Below are positions 1 to 6,514 of a stretch of 26,995 nucleotides of DNA, piece after piece. The first letter of the stretch is position 1; every line of letters starts with the position of its first letter. The stretch is from a virus (taxonomy: Duplodnaviria > Heunggongvirae > Uroviricota > Caudoviricetes). Under the pieces are notes generated by a model. That model saw only the letters and a list, made by a program, of their open reading frames with translations, ran no database searches and had not been told where the DNA came from. The translations under genes were made by a program, and so were the position numbers. Location of the stretch: the IMG/VR virus record IMGVR_UViG_2724679542_000005. One strand, 5' to 3'.

Positions 1-185
1 TTCATGGCCATATCAATGATTTTCTGGTGCGTACCGGGCTGAGAGGCGGTGTAAGTGAACTGTAGTTGCCATGTTTTACGGCAATGAGAGCAGAGATAGC
101 GCTGATGTCCGGCAGTGCTTTTGCCGTTACGCACCACGCCTTCAGTAGCGGAGCAGGAAGGACATCTGATGGAAATGGAAGCCAC
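1..185 (-). CDS. insA: IS1 InsA, 5' part only (GTG start at 185, gene runs off the window)
   Basis: Mirror image of the right-hand insA (26500-26775); same 55-nt offset from the IS1 end; GTG start inferred by symmetry. Confidence 0.8.
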
Positions 186-240
186 GCAAGCACCTTAAAA
201 TCACCATCATACACTAAATCAGTAAGTTGGCAGCATTACC
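1..240 (-). mobile_element. IS1 insertion sequence, partial (cut by window start); terminal inverted repeat ends at 240
   Basis: Reverse complement of 218-240 is the IS1 terminal repeat (ggtaatgctgccaacttactgat); region 1-240 is the reverse complement of 26445-26684, judged from identical ORF-track translations. Confidence 0.9.
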
Positions 241-289: not shown

Positions 290-606
290 GCGGAATTAAA
301 AACGATATCCTGCTGAGAACATAAACACCCACGGATCGAGGCGTACGCTATCATGTTGCTGTGCACCGCCCAGCTTATAATTGGCGGTGGTATCGATATC
401 CATGTACCAGACTGACATGTTTTAAAAAATGCAATAAGACATTGTATCTGAAAGAAAAAACAGGATTTTGAGGCGCTTTTTTATACCGTTTTTCCGTGTT
501 TTTAACTGCCTGATTTTATTGAAATCTTTTTTAGTTTTGCAGAAAGGATTTTTTGCTCGATCGCTTTAATTTTATACATTCCTGATAACGGAAATTTTTT
601 TGCCCG

Positions 607-636
607 TTGACAGTTTTTGTTCTCCGGGGCTATATT
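607..636 (+). promoter_or_regulatory. Candidate sigma70 promoter, TTGACA (607-612), 18-nt spacer, TATATT (631-636)
   Basis: Consensus -35 and near-consensus -10 hexamers seen directly; about 240 nt upstream of the rha start. Confidence 0.4.
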
Positions 637-878
637 CCTCACACAACCGCAAAATCGGTTGTCGGGATTGGCGTCTCGGATAACATCACAACGCATAGCC
701 GCGTTTGCGGTTTTTTTTGCGTTAAGCATTGCCACATTCGCATTATGGTGGGGCGTGCAGGGGCGGAGAAATCCGCGCCGGGTTTTGTGATGACCGGTTA
801 CGCCAACCCTGTACGTCTCACCACCTCCCTGATTGGCGTCAGAGGTGGTGATCATCCAATTAATTGGAGTCATCACAT

Positions 879-1436
879 ATGAATACAGCTATAACTTTTT
901 CTAACGAGTCACCAAAAGTCTTTTTCAAAGATGGTCGCCTGGTTACCACCTCTCAAGCTGTTGCCGACTACTTCGATAAACAACATAAACACGTTTTAGC
1001 TAAGATTGACACACTCGACTGCTCTCCCGAATTTACATCAGCCAACTTTTCGGCCGATGTTCAGACTGTCGAAATTGGCAACGGCGCAGAACGTGAATCA
1101 CGATGCTACCTGATCACAAAAGACGGCTTCATGTTCCTCGTAATGGGATTTACTGGCAAAAAAGCAGCCAGACTAAAAGAAGCTTACATTGAAAAATTTA
1201 ACGCAATGGAAGAAGAACTCCACAAACGTCCTCCTGCAGCACAAAACTCCCCCGCCCCAAATAATGGATGCGCATTACTGATCCACTTCGATAAACACGG
1301 TCAGGTCGAGTTCACAGAAAAAGTCCCCGCCGATGCGATGGTATGCACGCTGGAACGGTTTAAATTTTATCTGGAGCAACATGGGTGGATCGTTGCCCGT
1401 AAAGAACAATTGGTGGAAAGGTTGATGCGGTTTTAA
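879..1436 (+). CDS. rha: Phage regulatory protein, Rha family (N-terminal Rha domain, unrecognised C-terminal half)
   Basis: ORF track 864-1436; ATG at 879 with GGAG 9 nt upstream. Rha-family motifs FDKQHKHVLAKIDTL and YLITKDGFMFLVMGFTGKKAARLKEAYIEKFNAMEEEL recognised from memory of that family. Confidence 0.75.
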   Translation: MNTAITFSNESPKVFFKDGRLVTTSQAVADYFDKQHKHVLAKIDTLDCSPEFTSANFSADVQTVEIGNGAERESRCYLITKDGFMFLVMGFTGKKAARLKEAYIEKFNAMEEELHKRPPAAQNSPAPNNGCALLIHFDKHGQVEFTEKVPADAMVCTLERFKFYLEQHGWIVARKEQLVERLMRF

Positions 1437-1445
1437 TGAATGCAA

Positions 1446-1476
1446 AACCCCGGATGATCACCGGGGTTAATTTTAT
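1446..1476. terminator. Bidirectional hairpin terminator (aaccccgg / ccggggtt) between convergent rha and the small minus-strand ORF
   Basis: 8-bp GC-rich stem with 7-nt loop; T-run on the plus strand and TTTTG on the minus strand. Confidence 0.5.
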
Positions 1477-1562
1477 CGAGCGTGATTGCCGCTAATCGCC
1501 ATCGCTCTGATTGAGCGTAAATCATTCAGGTTATTCAGTTCTTCCTTCTGCTCTCGCTGACG

Positions 1563-1733
1563 TCAATAAATCCCATCATTGCGATCAACCTCATCCTTAA
1601 CCATTGATGCGAGCAGTTCTTCCAGTTTCTGCGCTGACAGCTTTACCTGGTGATCTTCAGCATCTTCCCGGGCTATTGTGGTTCGCGCAGTGGCTGATTT
1701 TGCTGACATCACCACAGGGGGCAGACGGACCAT
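1563..1733 (-). CDS. Hypothetical small acidic protein (56 aa, or 48 aa from the ATG at 1709)
   Basis: Part of ORF-track ORF 1563-1844; start chosen at 1733 where GGAGG lies about 10 nt upstream; no recognisable domain. Confidence 0.3.
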   Translation of the reverse strand: MVRLPPVVMSAKSATARTTIAREDAEDHQVKLSAQKLEELLASMVKDEVDRNDGIY

Positions 1734-1797
1734 TGAACCATGGCCTCCGGAACAAATAAGGGCAAAAATAACAACCACTATCGAAAGCTCACAAACT

Positions 1798-2013
1798 AAC
1801 CGCAGCACGTTCCTGCATACGACGTGTCTGCGGCATAATCCCAATGATTACTCCCTGACAGGATTTGCAGGCCACTCAATATCAGGTGCAGTTGATGTAT
1901 CAACACGATTCAACAATACCCGATATTTATTCCATGCCTCCAGCAACGATCTTTCTTCCTCCGTTGCGATTTCCAGATCTACAGCATCCTGCAGTGGCGC
2001 AATATACTCACTG
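1798..2013. repeat. Direct repeat copy A (~216 bp): tfa 3' end plus downstream hairpin
   Basis: About 90% identical by eye to 2848-3062, including the ccgcagcacgt...acgtg(t)ctgcgg hairpin and the tfa C-terminal coding sequence. Confidence 0.85.
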
Positions 2014-2117
2014 AATTCCTGGATGTAGAACTGTGTGGTGACGGTCTTCCAGCCATTCGGCTCCTGCTGTATCGAAGCATACCAGGCTATTTCAATATCG
2101 CTATGCTGCGGCAGCAT
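1848..2117 (-). pseudogene. Tail fibre assembly gene fragment (C-terminal ~55 aa near-identical to Tfa, diverged N-terminal part, no full-length gene)
   Basis: ORF-track 89-aa product ends ...[51 protein letters not shown], almost identical to the Tfa C-terminus at 2897-3481. Confidence 0.7.
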
Positions 2118-2173: not shown

Positions 2174-2185
2174 ACGGTGAAATCA

Positions 2186-2842
2186 ATGAAAAAAAACACA
2201 GATGATGGGGCTAAAATTTACACACCACTTACCCTAAAGCTTTATGACTGGTGGGTTTTGGGAGTATCAAATCGGCTTGCATGGGGATGTCCTACAAAGG
2301 AACACCTTCTTCCACACTTTCTGGAACATGTAGGTAACAACCATCTGGATATTGGTGTTGGAACTGGGTTTTACCTTACTCACGTACCTGAGAGTAGTCT
2401 GATATCTTTAATGGATTTGAACGAAGCTAGCCTGAACGCGGCATCTACAAGGGCTGGGGAATCAAAAATTAAACATAAAATTAGCCATGATGTTTTTGAA
2501 CCTTATCCCGCGGCGTTACATGGTCAATTTGATTCCATTTCCATGTTTTACCTTCTTCACTGCCTGCCTGGAAATATATCTACAAAAAGCTGTGTAATAC
2601 GCAATGCGGCGCAGGCCTTAACTGACGATGGAACTCTATACGGAGCCACAATTCTTGGCGATGGAGTTGTGCACAATAGCTTCGGTCAAAAACTGATGCG
2701 CATTTACAATCAGAAAGGCATCTTTTCAAACACAAAAGATTCCGAAGAAGGCTTAACACATATACTCTCAGAGCATTTCGAGAATGTTAAAACCAAGGTT
2801 CAAGGTACTGTAGTAATGTTTTCCGCTTCAGGGAAAAAATAG
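2186..2842 (+). CDS. Putative class I SAM-dependent methyltransferase (low-GC cargo gene; substrate unknown)
   Basis: ORF track 2177-2842 (GTG); ATG at 2186. Glycine-rich SAM-binding motif I LDIGVGTG; no DPPY/NPPY or PC-type DNA methyltransferase motifs. Lower GC than the structural genes by eye. Arrangement recalls tfaD-ybcY-tfaX of the E. coli K-12 DLP12 prophage (from memory). Confidence 0.7.
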   Translation: MKKNTDDGAKIYTPLTLKLYDWWVLGVSNRLAWGCPTKEHLLPHFLEHVGNNHLDIGVGTGFYLTHVPESSLISLMDLNEASLNAASTRAGESKIKHKISHDVFEPYPAALHGQFDSISMFYLLHCLPGNISTKSCVIRNAAQALTDDGTLYGATILGDGVVHNSFGQKLMRIYNQKGIFSNTKDSEEGLTHILSEHFENVKTKVQGTVVMFSASGKK

Positions 2843-2847
2843 CATCC

Positions 2848-3062
2848 AACCGCAGCACGTTCTTGCTTAAGACGTGCTGCGGCATAATCCCAATGATTAC
2901 TCCCTGACAGGGTTCGTAGGCCACTCAATATCAGGTGCAGTTGATGTATCAACACGGTTCAGCAACACCCGATATTTTTTCCAGGCTTCCAGCAATGAGG
3001 TTTCTTCCTCCGTTGCGATTTCCAGATCTACAGCATCCTGAAGTGGCGCAATATGCTCACTG
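2848..3062. repeat. Direct repeat copy B (~215 bp): 3' end of intact tfa plus downstream hairpin
   Basis: See copy A. Confidence 0.85.
2850..2882. terminator. Long hairpin (ccgcagcacgt ... acgtgctgcgg) between the methyltransferase stop and the tfa stop; possible bidirectional terminator
   Basis: 11-bp perfect inverted repeat seen directly; the T-run on the minus strand is about 10 nt away, so termination efficiency is uncertain. Confidence 0.4.
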
Positions 3063-3481
3063 GCTACCTGCATCAGGCTGTTTTTTGTTTCTTCCGCCTC
3101 CCGGATCCGGAACAGTTTTTCTGCTTCTGCATCTTTCACCCAGGCTGTGCCGTTCCACTTCTGAAACTCCCCTTCCGGCGATAACCAGGTAACATTTTCC
3201 GGTAACGGACCGAGTTCAGAAATAAATAACGCGTCCCCTGACGCTACGTCATAAACCGTTTTACCCCGATGGTCTTCAACGAGATGCCACGATGCCTCAT
3301 CACTGTTGAAAACAGCCACGAAGCCTGCCGGAATATCTGGCGGTGCAATATCGGTACTGTTTGCTGGCAGACCTGTATGAGGCGGAATATATGCATCACC
3401 TTCACCAATAAATTCATTAGTTCCGGCCAGCAGATTATAAATTTTTATGGTCCGTGGTTGTTCACTCATTCTGAATGCCAT
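2897..3481 (-). CDS. tfa: Tail fibre assembly protein Tfa
   Basis: 194-aa ORF-track product matches lambda Tfa from memory; start ATG overlaps the stf stop (TAATG). Confidence 0.9.
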
Positions 3482-6400
3482 TATGCAAGCCTCACAATAT
3501 AGTTAAATGCGATGTTTTTGACGGTGTTTTCCGCGTTACCAGCAGCGTTAACGGTGATGGTATGTCCATGTGAACCAATCGCAACGGAGTGCGTATGAGC
3601 ACCAATACCGACAGTATGTGCGTGTGCACCTGCGCTTGCAGCAGTACCCGATACAGAGTGCGTATGAGCGCCTGCAGAAGAAGTGTTAACACTGTATTTA
3701 GAATAATCAGGTGATCCACTTCCCGGAGCACCACTGGAACCACCTGAAACAAATGTCATCGAATGGGTATGTGCACCGGCTGAAGCAGCCGTACCGCTAA
3801 CACTATGGGTATGCGCACCAGTGTTATTCGTGGATTTAGTGCCGTAATCAAACGACGATGTGGTTTTCGTCCCCAAATCCGTACTGGATACGCTGGCGCT
3901 GTGGGTGTGTGATTTAATGCCGTCCTGTTCCTGAGACAATACGGCTCGATCACTGGCGGGCTTGCCCTTAATCGTCCAGCCACGCATATCAGGGATCACG
4001 CCTGACGGATAAGCGGCTGCAAGTTTCGGGTAAGCAGATTTGTCAAAAGTCTGCCCCTGCATCAGGGCATAACCAGACGGAACGGTATCTGATGGCCACG
4101 GGATTGGTGCACCGACTGGATAAAACTCTGCAGGAGGATGAGCCGAGGTGTAAAGCTGCGCCCACGGCGACCAGTTTGCGTCGGTCGTATCCCGTCGTGA
4201 ACGAATAAATGCCGGAGCATGAGCACCGCTTGTACCACTCCAGCCGATGAGTAACTCACCTTCGCCAACGGCTGTCATCCCTTTCAGGTGAATGATATTT
4301 CCATACGCTGTTGGATATCCGTTGTTATACACCTCGTATAACTCAAGACCTGTTGCCCCCTGCGTATTGTCTGTCAGCGCGGTTACCCGACCTTTTGAAG
4401 ACAGATTAACTGATGATACTGCTGTTCCACCTGACGGTAACGCCCCGATCTCTGATGCCGTTGGCTTATTTCTGGAGTTATAGTCCCTTCGCCAGCCAGG
4501 TGAATAATCTGTTCCGTGATTAATATAGGTAAACTGGGCGTTAGTTGTTCCACCACCAGTGGAGGTGGTCGGTGTGGTAATGCGGATCGTCATCGCTGAC
4601 TTTATCCCCATTACTTCAATGACAGCTCCGGCGAGATGAATATTACCGCAGCCAGTATCAGTAATGATTTTATTATTGCCATAAGACCAGGAACCCTTGC
4701 ACATCCAGTATGGATGGTTAAATGCTCCCTGAGAATCCAGCCACTCGATAAACTGTGCAGTCGTCCAGTTTCCTGTTGTTGTGCTTACTGACCCACCGAA
4801 GGCACGGCAGGCACCAATATTTTTCGTAAAGGTGTCTTTGCCAGGGATATCCGCACCGTTCTGATCTTTCTGCAGACGTTTCTCAGCATTGTCATTGGCT
4901 GCTTTTACTGCCTTTGGCGTTGCCGCCAGCGTTTCAGACGTGCTGTTGGTCGCGCTGCTTAGCTGGATTATCCCTTTCTGTGCTGTCGTTGCATCCTGTG
5001 CGGTGTATTTCCCGTTAGCCAGGTCATACGCGGCCTTAACGGCTTTTGGCGTTGCCGCCAGTGACTCGGAAGTGCTGTTGGTCGCACTGCTGAGCTGTAC
5101 TATCCCCTTTTTCGTCGTGCTCGCATCCTCAAGCGCCACGGCGGATGCAATATCCTCTGCCCGTTTTGCCGCTGTCTCGGCGCGCGTTGCTGCAGATTCC
5201 GCCGTACTTTTGCTCTGAGCTGCCGCCGTCGCACTGCCAGCTGCCTCTGTCGCCTTCGTGGATGCCGTCGTGGCGCTACCCTTCGCTGCTGACGCCTGTC
5301 TGGTCGCCTCATCTTTTGAAGCAGACGCCGATGAGGCCGATGACGACGCCGAACTGGCTGACGATGCGGCAGCCGTTTTTGAGGATTCTGCGCTGGTTTC
5401 CGACGCTTTCGCGTTCGTTTCGGATGTCTTCGCTGCGGAAGCAGACCTCGCTGCTGCGCTGGCCTGTTCAGTGGCTTCGCCAGCCTTCGTTGTGGCTGTT
5501 GAAGCAGACGATGCGGCGCTTTCTGCCGATTTTCCGGCGGCGGTGGCACTGGCTGAGGCCTGCCCGGCACTTGTTGACGCTGCACTGGCAGACGACGCAG
5601 CCGCTGTTTTTGAGCCTGCCGCAGCCGAGGCGCTCTGTCCCGCTGCCGTTTCAGAAGACCTGGCGTTCGTCTCTGACGTTTTTGCCGCCTTCGCGGAATT
5701 TCCTGCCGCTGTTGCCGAGGAAGCTGCGCTACTGGCGCTCGAGGATGCGTTCGTTTCTGATGATTTTGCCGCCTCTTTTGAAGCCGCCGCATCCCGGGCT
5801 GAGGTGGCAGCTTCTGACGCTTTCGTAGTCGCGGTGGATGCAGAAGTGGCTGCTGATTGTTGTGACGCTGCAGCATTCGTTTCTGACGTTTTCGCGGCAC
5901 TGGCACTGGTAGCTGCCGCGCTTTTTGAGGACTCTGCAGCGGCAGCACTTTTTGATGCTTCAGTGGCCTTTGTTGATGCCGTTCCTGCGCTGGAAGTCGC
6001 TGACTGAGCCGACGACGCGGCCTGTCCGGCTGACGTGCTGGCTGCGCGTGCTGAGCCTGCAGCATCAGTCGCATGGGTTGCCGCCTCACGGGCTGATGTG
6101 CTGGCATCACTGGCTGACTTCTTCGCGGCTGCCGTGTTCTGTGCCACCACGGACGCGTTACGCGCCACCTCTTCCACCATCAGCTCAAAACGGCGCAGTG
6201 CCTCCGGACGGGCATCATCCTCCGTCATGGCACCGAGAAAATCATTCAGCGTACCGGGTCGGGAATCTTCATACACGGTGATGGTCCCGGCATGTGACGG
6301 CGGGAATCCTTCCACCAACAGAATAACGCTGTACTGACCGTACTCAACGTCCATGCTGTAACGCCCGGCTTCATCCGGATTTTCAGATGCCAGCGTGTTC

Positions 6401-6504
6401 ACCACCACCGTGGTACTGTTACGTTTTGCTTTCAGCTGGATTGTGCAGTTCTGTACCGGTTTTCCTGTGCCGTCTTTCAGTACACCTGAAATTTTTACTG
6501 CCAT
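3481..6504 (-). CDS. stf: Side tail fibre protein Stf (1007 aa, mosaic; intact reading frame)
   Basis: ORF track 3481-6510; ATG at 6504 gives [26 protein letters not shown]..., the lambda Stf N-terminus; C-terminus ...[31 protein letters not shown] with GAHTHS-type His repeats. Confidence 0.9.
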
Positions 6505-6514
6505 ATTCACCCCA

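What the first reader, a model, noticed from the sequence alone, without database searches (positions are those of the whole stretch)
879..1436. Rha-family regulator with an unrecognised C-terminal half in the tail-distal accessory region
Residues ~5-115 carry the Rha-family signature. Residues ~120-190 (Pro/Ala-rich linker, then ...CALLIHFDKHGQVEFTEKVPADAMVCTLERFKFYLEQHGWIVARKEQLVERLMRF) do not resemble a domain I can name. Lambda has no rha at this position, so this is an insert relative to lambda. The C-terminal effector part is the piece worth characterising.
Basis: partly seen in the sequence, partly recalled or inferred. Interest (0 to 1): 0.4.

Follow-up and report, generated by a model that had tools for sequence, protein, structure and literature searches.

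The report
RNA-gated Rha antirepressor cassette in prophage
The gene is a real Rha-family phage regulator whose unnamed C-terminal half is a recurrent small domain shared with the Salmonella Gifsy-1 prophage inducer AnrP, and it is the cargo of a known kind of antisense-RNA-controlled switch, so it is a fairly ordinary member of a partly studied system.

Summary
ORF 879-1436 (+) encodes 185 aa. Residues 11-117 are a Rha domain (Pfam E 3e-27), followed by a disordered Pro/Ala linker and a roughly 58-aa C-terminal module with no Pfam, NCBIfam or PDB match.

The module is not an orphan. A profile search finds it in 99 protein clusters. It is always C-terminal or stand-alone, and it sits behind six different antirepressor-type N-domains: Rha, Bro-N, KilA-N, ORF6N, P22_AR_N and AntA. 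One carrier is Gifsy-1 AnrP, whose expression induces that prophage.

The upstream "ash family" ORF is really a sigma-70 promoter, an IsrK/c4-a1b1 sRNA (643-717) and a C4-type antisense RNA (741-828). A 45-codon orf45 overlaps the rha start codon as ATGA. The C4 loop is complementary to IsrK and to the rha ribosome-binding region. Across 18 specificity types in related prophages these three sites covary.

So this is a P1 immI / Gifsy-1 isrK-anrP type cassette carrying a Rha-headed cargo, a new member of a known kind. What the C-terminal domain does biochemically remains untested. Repressor binding is my favoured guess. A link to GftA-type small antirepressors is only suggestive (hhalign 21%).

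The parts
607..636 (+). Sigma-70 promoter of the cassette (-35 TTGACA 607-612, 18-nt spacer, -10 TATATT 631-636)
   Evidence: 11 of 12 consensus matches. It aligns with the isrK promoter of Gifsy-1, whose activity was shown experimentally in PMC4825925.
643..717 (+). IsrK-like sRNA, equivalent to the c4-a1b1 element. Two hairpins, a spacer and an intrinsic terminator (697-717). It carries a1 (UUGGCGU, 668-674) and b1 (CAUCACAA, 684-691).
   Evidence: Rfam isrK RF01394, 72.2 bits (GA 50). Rfam c4-a1b1 RF03163, 43.8 bits at 630-682, just under GA 46.7. Terminator. Complementarity to the C4 element.
741..828 (+). C4/CI-type antisense RNA. Hairpin-2 loop b' is UUGUGAUGAC (785-794). Single-stranded a' is ACGCCAA (800-806).
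   Evidence: Rfam C4 RF01695, 75.9 bits (GA 45), full-length match. The MFE fold reproduces the structure, z = -4.9.
745..882 (+). orf45: a 45-codon ORF that starts inside the C4 element. Its TGA stop (880-882) overlaps the rha ATG (879-881) as ATGA.
   Evidence: Direct reading of the sequence. Same length and same overlap as Gifsy-1 orf45. In Gifsy-1, orf45 translation is needed for anrP translation (PMC4825925).
833..877 (+). Downstream target sites: a2 (UUGGCGU, 833-839) and b2 (GUCAUCACA, 869-877). b2 lies between the rha SD (GGAG, 866-869) and the ATG. The region also folds into a local hairpin that sequesters the SD.
   Evidence: Exact complementarity of 7 nt (a2) and 9 nt (b2) to the C4 element. 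Local hairpin. Covariation of b', b1 and b2 over 18 types.
879..1436 (+). rha-type cargo gene, 185 aa. Rha winged-helix domain: aa 11-117 (nt 909-1229). Disordered Pro/Ala linker: aa 118-128 (nt 1230-1262). AnrP-type C-terminal module: aa 129-185 (nt 1263-1433).
   Evidence: Pfam and NCBIfam. AF2 model built with an MSA: pLDDT 81.5 overall, linker below 50, C-module 82-89. C-module family.
1446..1478 (+). Intrinsic terminator that closes the cassette (stem AACCCCGG/CCGGGGTT followed by a T-rich tail)
   Evidence: direct reading.
607..882 (+). The CDS that PGAP annotates as 'ash family protein'. It is mostly a translation of the promoter, IsrK and the C4 RNA. Only its last 45 codons (orf45) have experimental support for translation, and that support comes from a homologue.
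   Evidence: Pfam Phage_ASH, E 2.9e-14. Its TTG start is the -35 hexamer itself. The RNA genes lie inside it.

Best explanation
Window 607-1478 is a self-contained, RNA-gated antirepressor cassette. It is of the kind known from the phage P1/P7 immI operon (c4-icd-ant) and the Salmonella Gifsy-1 isrK-orf45-anrP locus. It lies at the tail-distal end of a lambdoid E. coli prophage integrated in ompW.

Proposed sequence of events:
- A strong sigma-70 promoter makes a short IsrK-like sRNA that ends at a leaky terminator.
- Read-through transcripts continue through a C4-type RNA element, orf45 and the Rha gene.
- The C4 element has two exposed segments, a' and b'. They can pair with a1/b1 in IsrK or with a2/b2 at the rha ribosome-binding region.
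- This pairing, in cis or after processing in trans, keeps the cargo untranslated until the balance of short IsrK to long transcript changes.
- Translation then enters through orf45 and is coupled into rha by the ATGA overlap.

The cargo protein has an N-terminal Rha winged-helix domain, a flexible linker and a roughly 58-aa beta-hairpin/helix module. Gifsy-1 AnrP carries the same module behind an ORF6N domain.

What is shown here: the anatomy, the homologies, the complementarity and its covariation, and the modular distribution of the C-domain. What is shown only in the Gifsy-1 homologue: promoter activity, read-through, the a1-a' pairing (by compensatory mutations), orf45 coupling, and prophage induction when AnrP is expressed. 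What is inferred: that this Rha protein likewise induces or derepresses a prophage, and that the shared C-terminal module is the part that engages the target (a phage repressor), with the interchangeable N-domains as accessory modules.
For: RNA leader:
- Rfam hits above gathering score for isrK and C4 lie inside the 'ash' ORF. c4-a1b1 scores 43.8 bits.
- The promoter matches 11/12 and two terminators are present.
- The leader aligns with Gifsy-1 isrK-orf45 at 79% column identity, including the promoter and the 45-codon ORF.
- Exact complementarities of 7-9 nt link the C4 element to IsrK and to the rha ribosome-binding region.
- In 18 loop types from IMG/VR prophages, the cognate loop-to-TIR (translation-initiation region) match averages 8.7 nt against 4.5 nt for non-cognate pairs.
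- Duplex energy is -13.1 kcal/mol cognate against -7.1 non-cognate for the TIR, and -12.9 against -6.1 for IsrK. The cognate ranks first in 13/18 (TIR) and 17/18 (IsrK) cases.
- The published compensatory mutations isrK-G28A/orf45-C162U and G31A/C159U (PMC4825925) fall, by my numbering, exactly in the a1-a' helix.

C-terminal domain:
- 32% identity to the AnrP C-terminus, E 3e-6.
- AnrP is ORF6N plus this module.
- The profile finds 99 clusters, always C-terminal or stand-alone.
- N-terminal partners are Rha 13, Bro-N 10, KilA-N 7, ORF6N 7, P22_AR_N 4, AntA 3.
- Stand-alone forms are the same domain (hhalign 99.3%, E 2.5e-20).
- The domain is confidently folded (pLDDT 82-89).
- Among close alleles the core is conserved while the linker varies.
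- Relatives with 85-89% identical Rha domains carry C-modules only 13-14% identical, as expected for a specificity determinant.

Function of the homologue: AnrP expression raises antQ-operon transcripts and induces Gifsy-1 (PMC4825925).
Against: - No experiment exists on this protein or on the isolated C-domain.
- 'Antirepressor' is itself only a predicted label for AnrP. The authors showed induction, not repressor binding.
- In Gifsy-1, constitutive co-expression of the C4-like species (STnc1160) did not relieve IsrK toxicity but enhanced it. A simple model in which C4 represses and IsrK acts as its decoy may therefore be wrong in sign or detail.
- The window's b'-b2 duplex is only rank 3 of 18.
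- Many leaders of this family carry Rha cargos with a different, helical C-terminus, so the C-module is not obligatory for the cassette.
- The same cassette in strain AR_0086 sits in a prophage whose repressor is a self-cleaving LexA/S24 type, which does not strictly need an antirepressor.
- No structural neighbour was found that would indicate a binding function.
Confidence: 0.6

Rival explanations
1. The protein is a conventional DNA-binding transcription factor. The Rha winged-helix domain binds phage or host promoters directly, as activator or repressor. The C-terminal module is only a dimerisation domain, and no repressor is contacted.
For: Databases label the family 'transcriptional regulator'. 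The N-domain model resembles winged-helix DNA binders (TFIIE, PadR, AbfR2), though weakly. [quoted passage not shown] A small beta-hairpin/helix module is plausible as a dimeriser.
Against: The same C-module follows six unrelated N-domains and also exists alone as 56-100 aa proteins. That is odd for a mere dimeriser of a DNA-binding head. It diverges far faster than the Rha domain. All partner N-domains are those typical of phage antirepressors.
Confidence: 0.22
2. The cassette is a weapon or defence in inter-phage conflict rather than a switch for its own prophage. The cargo would inactivate repressors of other resident prophages (cross-induction of competitors), or derail lysogeny or development of incoming phages.
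For: Gifsy antirepressors act in trans on other prophages (PMC3121763). The cassette is a moron-like unit with its own promoter and terminator. It lies outside the immunity region and points against the late operon. The host prophage in AR_0086 already has a RecA-cleavable S24 repressor. RNA specificity types and cargos recombine freely.
Against: There is no match to any PADLOC defence model. There are no data on targets. This reading is compatible with the main explanation, since it uses the same biochemistry and differs only in the target.
Confidence: 0.12
3. The cassette is a decaying remnant with no current function, carried along in a partly defective prophage.
For: The neighbouring region holds pseudogene fragments (DUF4376, truncated tail-fibre-assembly genes). 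In AR_0086 the prophage has a frameshifted gpJ and an IS21 insertion.
Against: The ORF is intact. Promoter, RNA elements, complementary sites, SD and terminator are all preserved. The 1.1-kb region is present at >=80% coverage in 443 complete E. coli genomes, mostly at >=99% identity. The C-domain core is conserved among alleles while the linker varies.
Confidence: 0.06

Closest known systems
Gifsy-1 isrK-orf45-anrP locus of Salmonella Typhimurium (Hershko-Shalev et al. 2016, PMC4825925)
   Same: The promoter, IsrK sRNA, C4-like element (STnc1160) and 45-codon orf45 with its stop overlapping the cargo start are all homologous at the DNA level. The cargo ends in the same C-terminal module.
   Different: The cargo N-domain is Rha here and ORF6N in AnrP. 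The b' specificity loop and its targets differ (UUGUGAUGA here, CGGUGAU in Gifsy-1). The cassette lies at the tail-distal prophage end rather than just downstream of the Q antiterminator gene. No isrJ follows it.
immI operon of phages P1 and P7 (c4 antisense RNA - icd - ant1/ant2; Citron & Schuster 1990, cited in PMC8201110, plus established knowledge)
   Same: A C4-family RNA is embedded in the leader of the operon it controls. a1/b1 sites lie upstream and a2/b2 sites at the downstream ribosome-binding region. A small upstream ORF is coupled to an antirepressor-type cargo. Specificity is set by the loop sequence.
   Different: Here the small ORF starts inside the C4 element itself, and b2 lies at the cargo's own SD/ATG. 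The cargo is unrelated to P1 Ant. RNase P processing and Rho-dependent polarity were not tested. The host is a lambdoid prophage, not P1.
Phage P4 immunity (CI RNA with seqA/seqC) and the 'Ash' protein family (Pfam PF10554)
   Same: Same RNA clan (CL00128). The Gifsy-1 authors called IsrK a structural homologue of seqA. The Ash Pfam model matches the translation of this leader.
   Different: P4 uses the RNA to terminate transcription of its replication genes, not to gate an antirepressor. The 'Ash' ORF here begins in the -35 hexamer and is most likely not a protein.
Small LexA-controlled antirepressors GftA/GfoA/FsoA of Gifsy and Fels prophages (Lemire et al. 2011, PMC3121763)
   Same: They are about 70 aa, bind repressors and induce prophages. 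A beta-hairpin followed by a helix aligns with the C-module over 37 columns.
   Different: The profile-profile probability is only 21% (E 1e-3). GftA lacks the conserved Gly-strand-helix tail. It has a different regulation (LexA box, dinI operon). Homology is not established.

Membership tests
Rha family (Pfam PF09669 / TIGR02681) | Match to the family HMM above the curated cutoff | tested here: met
   PF09669: 95.3 bits against a cutoff of 29.9, full-length 1-91/91. TIGR02681: 81.3 bits against 45.95.
C4-antisense-RNA-controlled antirepressor operon (P1/P7 immI type) | A C4-family RNA in the operon leader | tested here: met
   RF01695: 75.9 bits against GA 45, model positions 1-87/87, at 741-828.
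C4-antisense-RNA-controlled antirepressor operon (P1/P7 immI type) | Upstream a1/b1 sites complementary to C4 | tested here: met
   a1 at 668-674 and b1 at 684-691 are exact complements of a' and b'. isrK model 72.2 bits (GA 50). c4-a1b1 model 43.8 bits, just under GA 46.7. The cognate IsrK site ranks first in 17/18 types.
C4-antisense-RNA-controlled antirepressor operon (P1/P7 immI type) | Downstream a2/b2 sites at the ribosome-binding region of the controlled ORF | tested here: met
   a2 is at 833-839. b2 is at 869-877, between SD 866-869 and ATG 879. It covaries with the loop in 18 types. In P1 the site covers the RBS of icd; here it covers that of the cargo itself.
C4-antisense-RNA-controlled antirepressor operon (P1/P7 immI type) | C4 RNA released by processing and repressing the cargo in vivo | not testable with these tools
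   This needs northern blots, RNA-seq and reporter fusions. In Gifsy-1 a stable STnc1160 species is seen, but its role is unresolved.
C4-antisense-RNA-controlled antirepressor operon (P1/P7 immI type) | Cargo binds and inactivates the primary phage repressor | not testable with these tools
   No interaction data exist.
Gifsy-1 isrK-orf45-anrP locus | Homologous leader with a 45-codon orf45 overlapping the cargo start | tested here: met
   79% column identity. orf45 has 45 codons and a 4-nt overlap in both.
Gifsy-1 isrK-orf45-anrP locus | Cargo orthologous to AnrP over its whole length | tested here: not met
   Only residues 119-182 align (32% identity, E 3e-6). The N-domain is Rha here and ORF6N in AnrP.
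Gifsy-1 isrK-orf45-anrP locus | Position downstream of the Q antiterminator, followed by isrJ | tested here: not met
   The cassette lies next to the ompW' prophage end beyond the tail fibres. There is no isrJ hit in the window.
Named antirepressor C-terminal domains (ANT/KilAC PF03374, P22_AR_C PF10548, ORF6C PF10552) | HMM match of the C-terminal half | tested here: not met
   No such hit at E<=10 for the isolated C-terminus, nor in nine other carriers of the module.
GftA/GfoA-type small antirepressors | Detectable homology to the GftA family profile | tested here: inconclusive
   hhalign of stand-alone C-module alignment A6 against GftA alignment A5: probability 21%, E 1e-3, 37 columns. A1 against a single GftA sequence: probability 1.6%.

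The most novel reading that the evidence does not exclude
The roughly 58-aa C-terminal module may be an unnamed, autonomous repressor-inactivating domain. It may be distantly related to the GftA/GfoA small antirepressors. Enterobacterial prophages would then deploy it either alone or behind any of six interchangeable 'antirepressor N-domains'. If so, the much-annotated N-domains (Rha, Bro-N, KilA-N, ORF6N, AntA, P22_AR_N) are accessory modules, and this small module is the actual effector. The isrK/C4 leaders would supply at least 18 orthogonal RNA 'immunity' specificities that recombine freely with the cargos.
Probability: 0.25. Interest if true: 0.55.

Novelty: new member of a known kind. 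Interest (0 to 1): 0.3.

Why it matters
The result corrects an annotation that is repeated in hundreds of E. coli genomes. The 'ash family protein' CDS is a translated RNA leader, and the 'Rha family transcriptional regulator' is the gated cargo of an antisense-RNA switch. It also gives the unnamed C-terminal half a family: about 100 clusters, six fusion partners and stand-alone forms, with a functional anchor in the Gifsy-1 inducer AnrP. If the module proves to be the repressor-binding part, it would explain what the variable halves of many 'antirepressor-like' phage proteins do. It would also give a handle on SOS-independent prophage induction in E. coli and Salmonella. As it stands, this is a modest annotation and classification gain, not a new kind of system.

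Tried and rejected
- Single-sequence AlphaFold gave an unusable model (pLDDT 41). It was replaced by an MSA-based model.
- Foldseek against PDB gave no hit below E 0.1. BFVD hits were driven by the Rha N-domain and say nothing about the C-module.
- PDB sequence searches with the protein and with the C-module profile found nothing.
- tblastn of the C-module against 50,697 phage records found nothing at E<=1e-3.
- The word-indexed protein search with the 61-aa C-terminus returned only near-identical fragments. The exhaustive profile search was needed.
- A LexA box was sought as in the Gifsy gftA genes. Only a 1-mismatch site at 448-463 was found, about 145 nt upstream of the promoter, and the window-wide count is near chance. 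LexA control was rejected.
- Two papers retrieved through the term 'Rha' were false leads, because the term matched 'rhamnose'.
- PADLOC found no defence model.
- I tried to find the window's own genome so as to read its immunity region. The best whole-window match, NZ_AP027902.1, lacks the cassette and is the DLP12/argU locus. The repressor type was therefore taken from strain AR_0086, which carries the identical cassette at the same site.
- Homology of the C-module to GftA was tested and remains inconclusive.

Full report
**1. The observation**

The ORF is real and lies where stated. It runs from ATG 879 to the stop at 1434-1436 and encodes 185 aa. A GGAG Shine-Dalgarno sits at 866-869. PGAP annotates the identical CDS as a Rha family transcriptional regulator.

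Pfam Phage_pRha matches residues 23-112 (E 3.4e-27, 95 bits against a cutoff of 29.9). TIGR02681 matches residues 11-117.

The isolated C-terminus has no Pfam hit even at E<=10 and no NCBIfam hit. It has no PDB relative by sequence or by fold.

An AlphaFold model built on a 50-sequence alignment gives:
- a well-folded Rha domain;
- a disordered linker (residues 121-128, pLDDT below 50);
- a confidently folded C-terminal module (block means 82-89) made of a beta-hairpin (133-137, 143-148), a helix (158-167) and a terminal helix (175-184).

The only correction is that the protein has 185 residues, not about 190.

**2. Where it sits**

The first 420 nt of the window hold the 3' end of trpA and a truncated ompW copy. 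The cassette starts about 190 nt further in.

In strain AR_0086 the same 1.1 kb is 100% identical and sits at the same site. There the prophage is a 54-kb lambdoid element. Its integrase lies next to the intact ompW at the far end. It also carries a LexA/S24-type repressor, a Cro-like protein and a Q-like antiterminator.

The cassette points inward, against the late operon. It lies beyond the tail-fibre genes, in the equivalent of the lambda b region.

The 1.1-kb segment occurs at >=80% coverage in 443 of 5,426 complete E. coli genomes, mostly at >=99% identity.

**3. The upstream 'ash family protein' ORF is an RNA leader**

Rfam finds two RNA genes inside the annotated ash CDS (607-882). One is isrK at 643-717 (72 bits, GA 50). 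The other is a full-length C4 antisense RNA at 741-828 (76 bits, GA 45). With relaxed thresholds the c4-a1b1 model ('a1, b1 targets of C4 antisense RNA') also matches 630-682 at 43.8 bits, just under its GA of 46.7.

The TTG 'start codon' of the ash CDS is the first base of a near-consensus promoter: TTGACA, 18 nt, TATATT, 11 of 12 matches. That promoter places the transcription start at about 643, the first base of the isrK match. IsrK ends in an intrinsic terminator (697-717). A second terminator follows the rha stop (1446-1478).

The whole leader aligns with the Gifsy-1 isrK region at 79% column identity. The alignment includes the promoter hexamers and an ATG at 745 that opens a 45-codon ORF. 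The stop of that ORF overlaps the rha ATG as ATGA. This is the same length and the same overlap as Gifsy-1 orf45.

**4. What is known for the homologue**

In Gifsy-1 (PMC4825925):
- the isrK promoter drives isrK-orf45-anrP;
- part of the transcripts read through the IsrK terminator;
- the long mRNA is translationally silent;
- short IsrK acting in trans opens it;
- orf45 translation is needed for anrP translation;
- AnrP expression raises antQ-operon transcripts and induces the prophage.

A stable RNA downstream of IsrK (STnc1160) was noted and compared to the P4 CI RNA. By my numbering of the Gifsy-1 sequence, the published compensatory pairs isrK-G28A/orf45-C162U and isrK-G31A/orf45-C159U lie exactly in the helix formed by a1 (UUGGCGU) and a' (ACGCCAA).

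For P1, C4 RNA and Icd control synthesis of the antirepressor Ant (PMC8201110). The a1b1/a2b2 geometry in P1 is established knowledge (Citron & Schuster 1990).

**5. Pairing logic in the window and its covariation**

The C4 hairpin-2 loop (b', 785-794) is exactly complementary to 8 nt in the IsrK spacer (684-691). It is also complementary to 9 nt at 869-877, between the rha SD and the ATG.

The single-stranded a' (800-806) is complementary to the IsrK hairpin-2 loop (668-674) and to 833-839. The order a then b in the targets, and b' then a' in C4, fits antiparallel pairing of both sites at once.

The rha SD is additionally buried in a local hairpin.

To test whether this is more than chance, I scanned IMG/VR with the conserved 3' half of the C4 element. 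That gave about 120 prophage loci with 18 different hairpin-2 loops. Results:

| Measure | Cognate | Non-cognate |
|---|---|---|
| Longest Watson-Crick match, loop to downstream TIR (translation-initiation region) | 8.7 nt | 4.5 nt |
| RNAduplex energy, loop to TIR | -13.1 kcal/mol | -7.1 +/- 2.5 kcal/mol |
| RNAduplex energy, loop to IsrK spacer | -12.9 kcal/mol | -6.1 kcal/mol |

The cognate partner ranks first among 18 in 13 cases (TIR) and 17 cases (IsrK). For the window itself the rank is 3 for the TIR and 1 for IsrK.

Loop, upstream site and downstream site thus change together. This is the signature of P1/P7-type RNA immunity specificities.

Whether the C4 element acts in cis within the long mRNA or in trans after processing cannot be decided here. 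In Gifsy-1, co-expressed STnc1160 enhanced rather than relieved IsrK toxicity. The sign of its effect is therefore uncertain.

**6. The C-terminal module**

All close Rha homologues carry a C-terminus with the same pattern: a hydrophobic strand, a Gly turn, a strand, 'PGE', a strand, a helix ending in an invariant Gly, a strand and a helix.

Divergence is extreme. Relatives with 85-89% identical Rha domains have C-modules only 13-14% identical. Some fragments with an ORF6N head share the window's linker and C-module almost exactly. Recombination therefore happens at the linker.

A profile of the module, searched exhaustively against 1.84 billion representatives, finds 99 clusters. The module is always at the C-terminus of 160-300-aa proteins, or alone in 56-100-aa proteins. 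A few giant repeat proteins also scored, and I regard those as spurious.

Pfam typing of 45 carriers gives these N-terminal partners:
- Rha: 13
- Bro-N: 10
- KilA-N: 7
- ORF6N: 7
- P22_AR_N: 4
- AntA: 3
- 'Ash': 4 (translated leaders)

Gifsy-1 AnrP is ORF6N plus this module. Stand-alone forms are the same domain (hhalign 99.3%, E 2.5e-20). They are annotated 'hypothetical' in E. coli, Klebsiella, Pantoea, Kluyvera and Leclercia. One E. coli example lies in the early-left operon of another prophage, between the S24 repressor and the integrase.

PHROGs already group these proteins (995, 2379 'anti-repressor', 25059, 340).

The module is not obligatory for the cassette. Large groups of leaders carry Rha cargos with a different, helical C-terminus. 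One RNA specificity type (loop UUCCUUUU) is found with either an ORF6N or a Rha cargo.

**7. A possible link to proven antirepressors**

The 73-aa GftA of Gifsy-1/-2 binds its repressor and induces the prophage. I identified it as the GUG-initiated ORF between the dinI homologue and irsA (PMC3121763).

GftA aligns with the hairpin-helix core of the module in single-sequence and profile comparisons. The statistics are weak:
- hhalign 1.6% with one sequence;
- 21% probability and E 1e-3 with a 7-sequence GftA alignment against the stand-alone family;
- phmmer scores of 11-13 bits.

GftA also lacks the conserved Gly-strand-helix tail. I record this as a lead, not a finding.

**8. Interpretation**

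The best-supported reading is an RNA-gated antirepressor cassette of the P1 immI / Gifsy-1 isrK-anrP kind, with a Rha-headed cargo.

The shared C-module is the only protein part common to this gene and AnrP, and AnrP is the one experimentally active relative. It is the part that evolves like a specificity determinant, and it can exist alone. I therefore favour it as the target-engaging, probably repressor-binding, part. That step is inference.

The main rival is a DNA-binding regulator with a C-terminal dimeriser. A role in inter-prophage competition is a variant of the main reading. Decay is unlikely, because every element is intact and widely conserved.

No defence-system model matches the protein.

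**9. Novelty and score**

Both the RNA leader (Rfam C4, isrK, c4-a1b1) and the cargo class (PHROG families, AnrP) are already catalogued, and one homologous locus has been dissected.

What is added here:
- the link between the two for this E. coli gene;
- the observation that the 'ash' CDS is a translated RNA leader;
- a delineation of the unnamed C-terminal module with its six fusion partners;
- a quantitative demonstration of three-way covariation over 18 specificity types.

This is a new member of a known kind. Interest is 0.3.

Noticed in passing
window 607-882 (+): The PGAP 'ash family protein' CDS starts with the TTG of the -35 hexamer and is made of the promoter, IsrK and the C4 RNA. 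Pfam Phage_ASH (PF10554) matches this translation (E 2.9e-14). It also matches the N-termini of 227-283-aa 'Ash-Rha' fusions in other prophages. The Pfam family may therefore largely model translated C4/CI-type RNA leaders rather than a protein.
   Followed up: partly
L084, L093, L020 and similar IMG/VR loci (leader types GGUCAUGUGCGA, GUUCUAUGUUGA): In these relatives the ATG inside the C4 element is in frame with the Rha gene. This gives 227-233-aa ORFs, so gene callers report fused Ash-Rha proteins. In other relatives the small ORF stops 27-85 nt before the cargo start. The orf45-to-cargo coupling geometry is therefore not conserved across the family.
   Followed up: partly
L088 versus L089/L012: The same RNA specificity loop (UUCCUUUU) precedes an ORF6N-headed cargo in one prophage and a Rha-headed cargo in another. 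Leader and cargo recombine independently.
   Followed up: partly
window 2940-3138 (-): A full-length Rfam IS009 match (227 bits, GA 117) lies inside the tail-fibre-assembly gene 2897-3481. The match could be a real sRNA or simply conserved coding sequence.
   Followed up: no
window 1848-2117 (-), 2177-2842 (+), 2897-3481 (-): A class I SAM-dependent methyltransferase gene on the opposite strand sits between a complete tail-fibre-assembly gene and a truncated copy. The two copies share the same C-terminal 60 or so residues. It looks like a moron inserted by recombination between tfa copies. It has only a marginal PADLOC hit (mad2, E 0.009).
   Followed up: partly
window 1-231 and 296-418 (-): The 3' end of trpA is followed by a C-terminal fragment of ompW. 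In AR_0086 the intact ompW lies next to the integrase at the other prophage end. The phage therefore integrates into the 3' end of ompW and restores the gene.
   Followed up: partly
window 3481-6510 (-): The 1009-aa tail fibre has a stretch of about 350 residues that is almost only Ala, Ser, Thr, Lys, Glu and Gly, in imperfect repeats.
   Followed up: no
window 1563-1844 (-): A DUF4376-type pseudogene fragment lies directly after the cassette terminator. This points to earlier rearrangements at this end of the prophage.
   Followed up: no
L126 5001-5198 (E. coli contig AASRLR010000022.1): A 65-aa stand-alone copy of the C-terminal module is encoded in the early-left operon of a different prophage. 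It lies between an S24 repressor gene and the integrase, next to an HNH endonuclease gene.
   Followed up: partly
window 448-463 (+): A LexA-box-like sequence, CTGAAAGAAAAAACAG (one mismatch to CTGT-N8-ACAG), lies about 145 nt upstream of the cassette promoter. The window-wide count of such matches is close to chance, so it is probably meaningless.
   Followed up: yes
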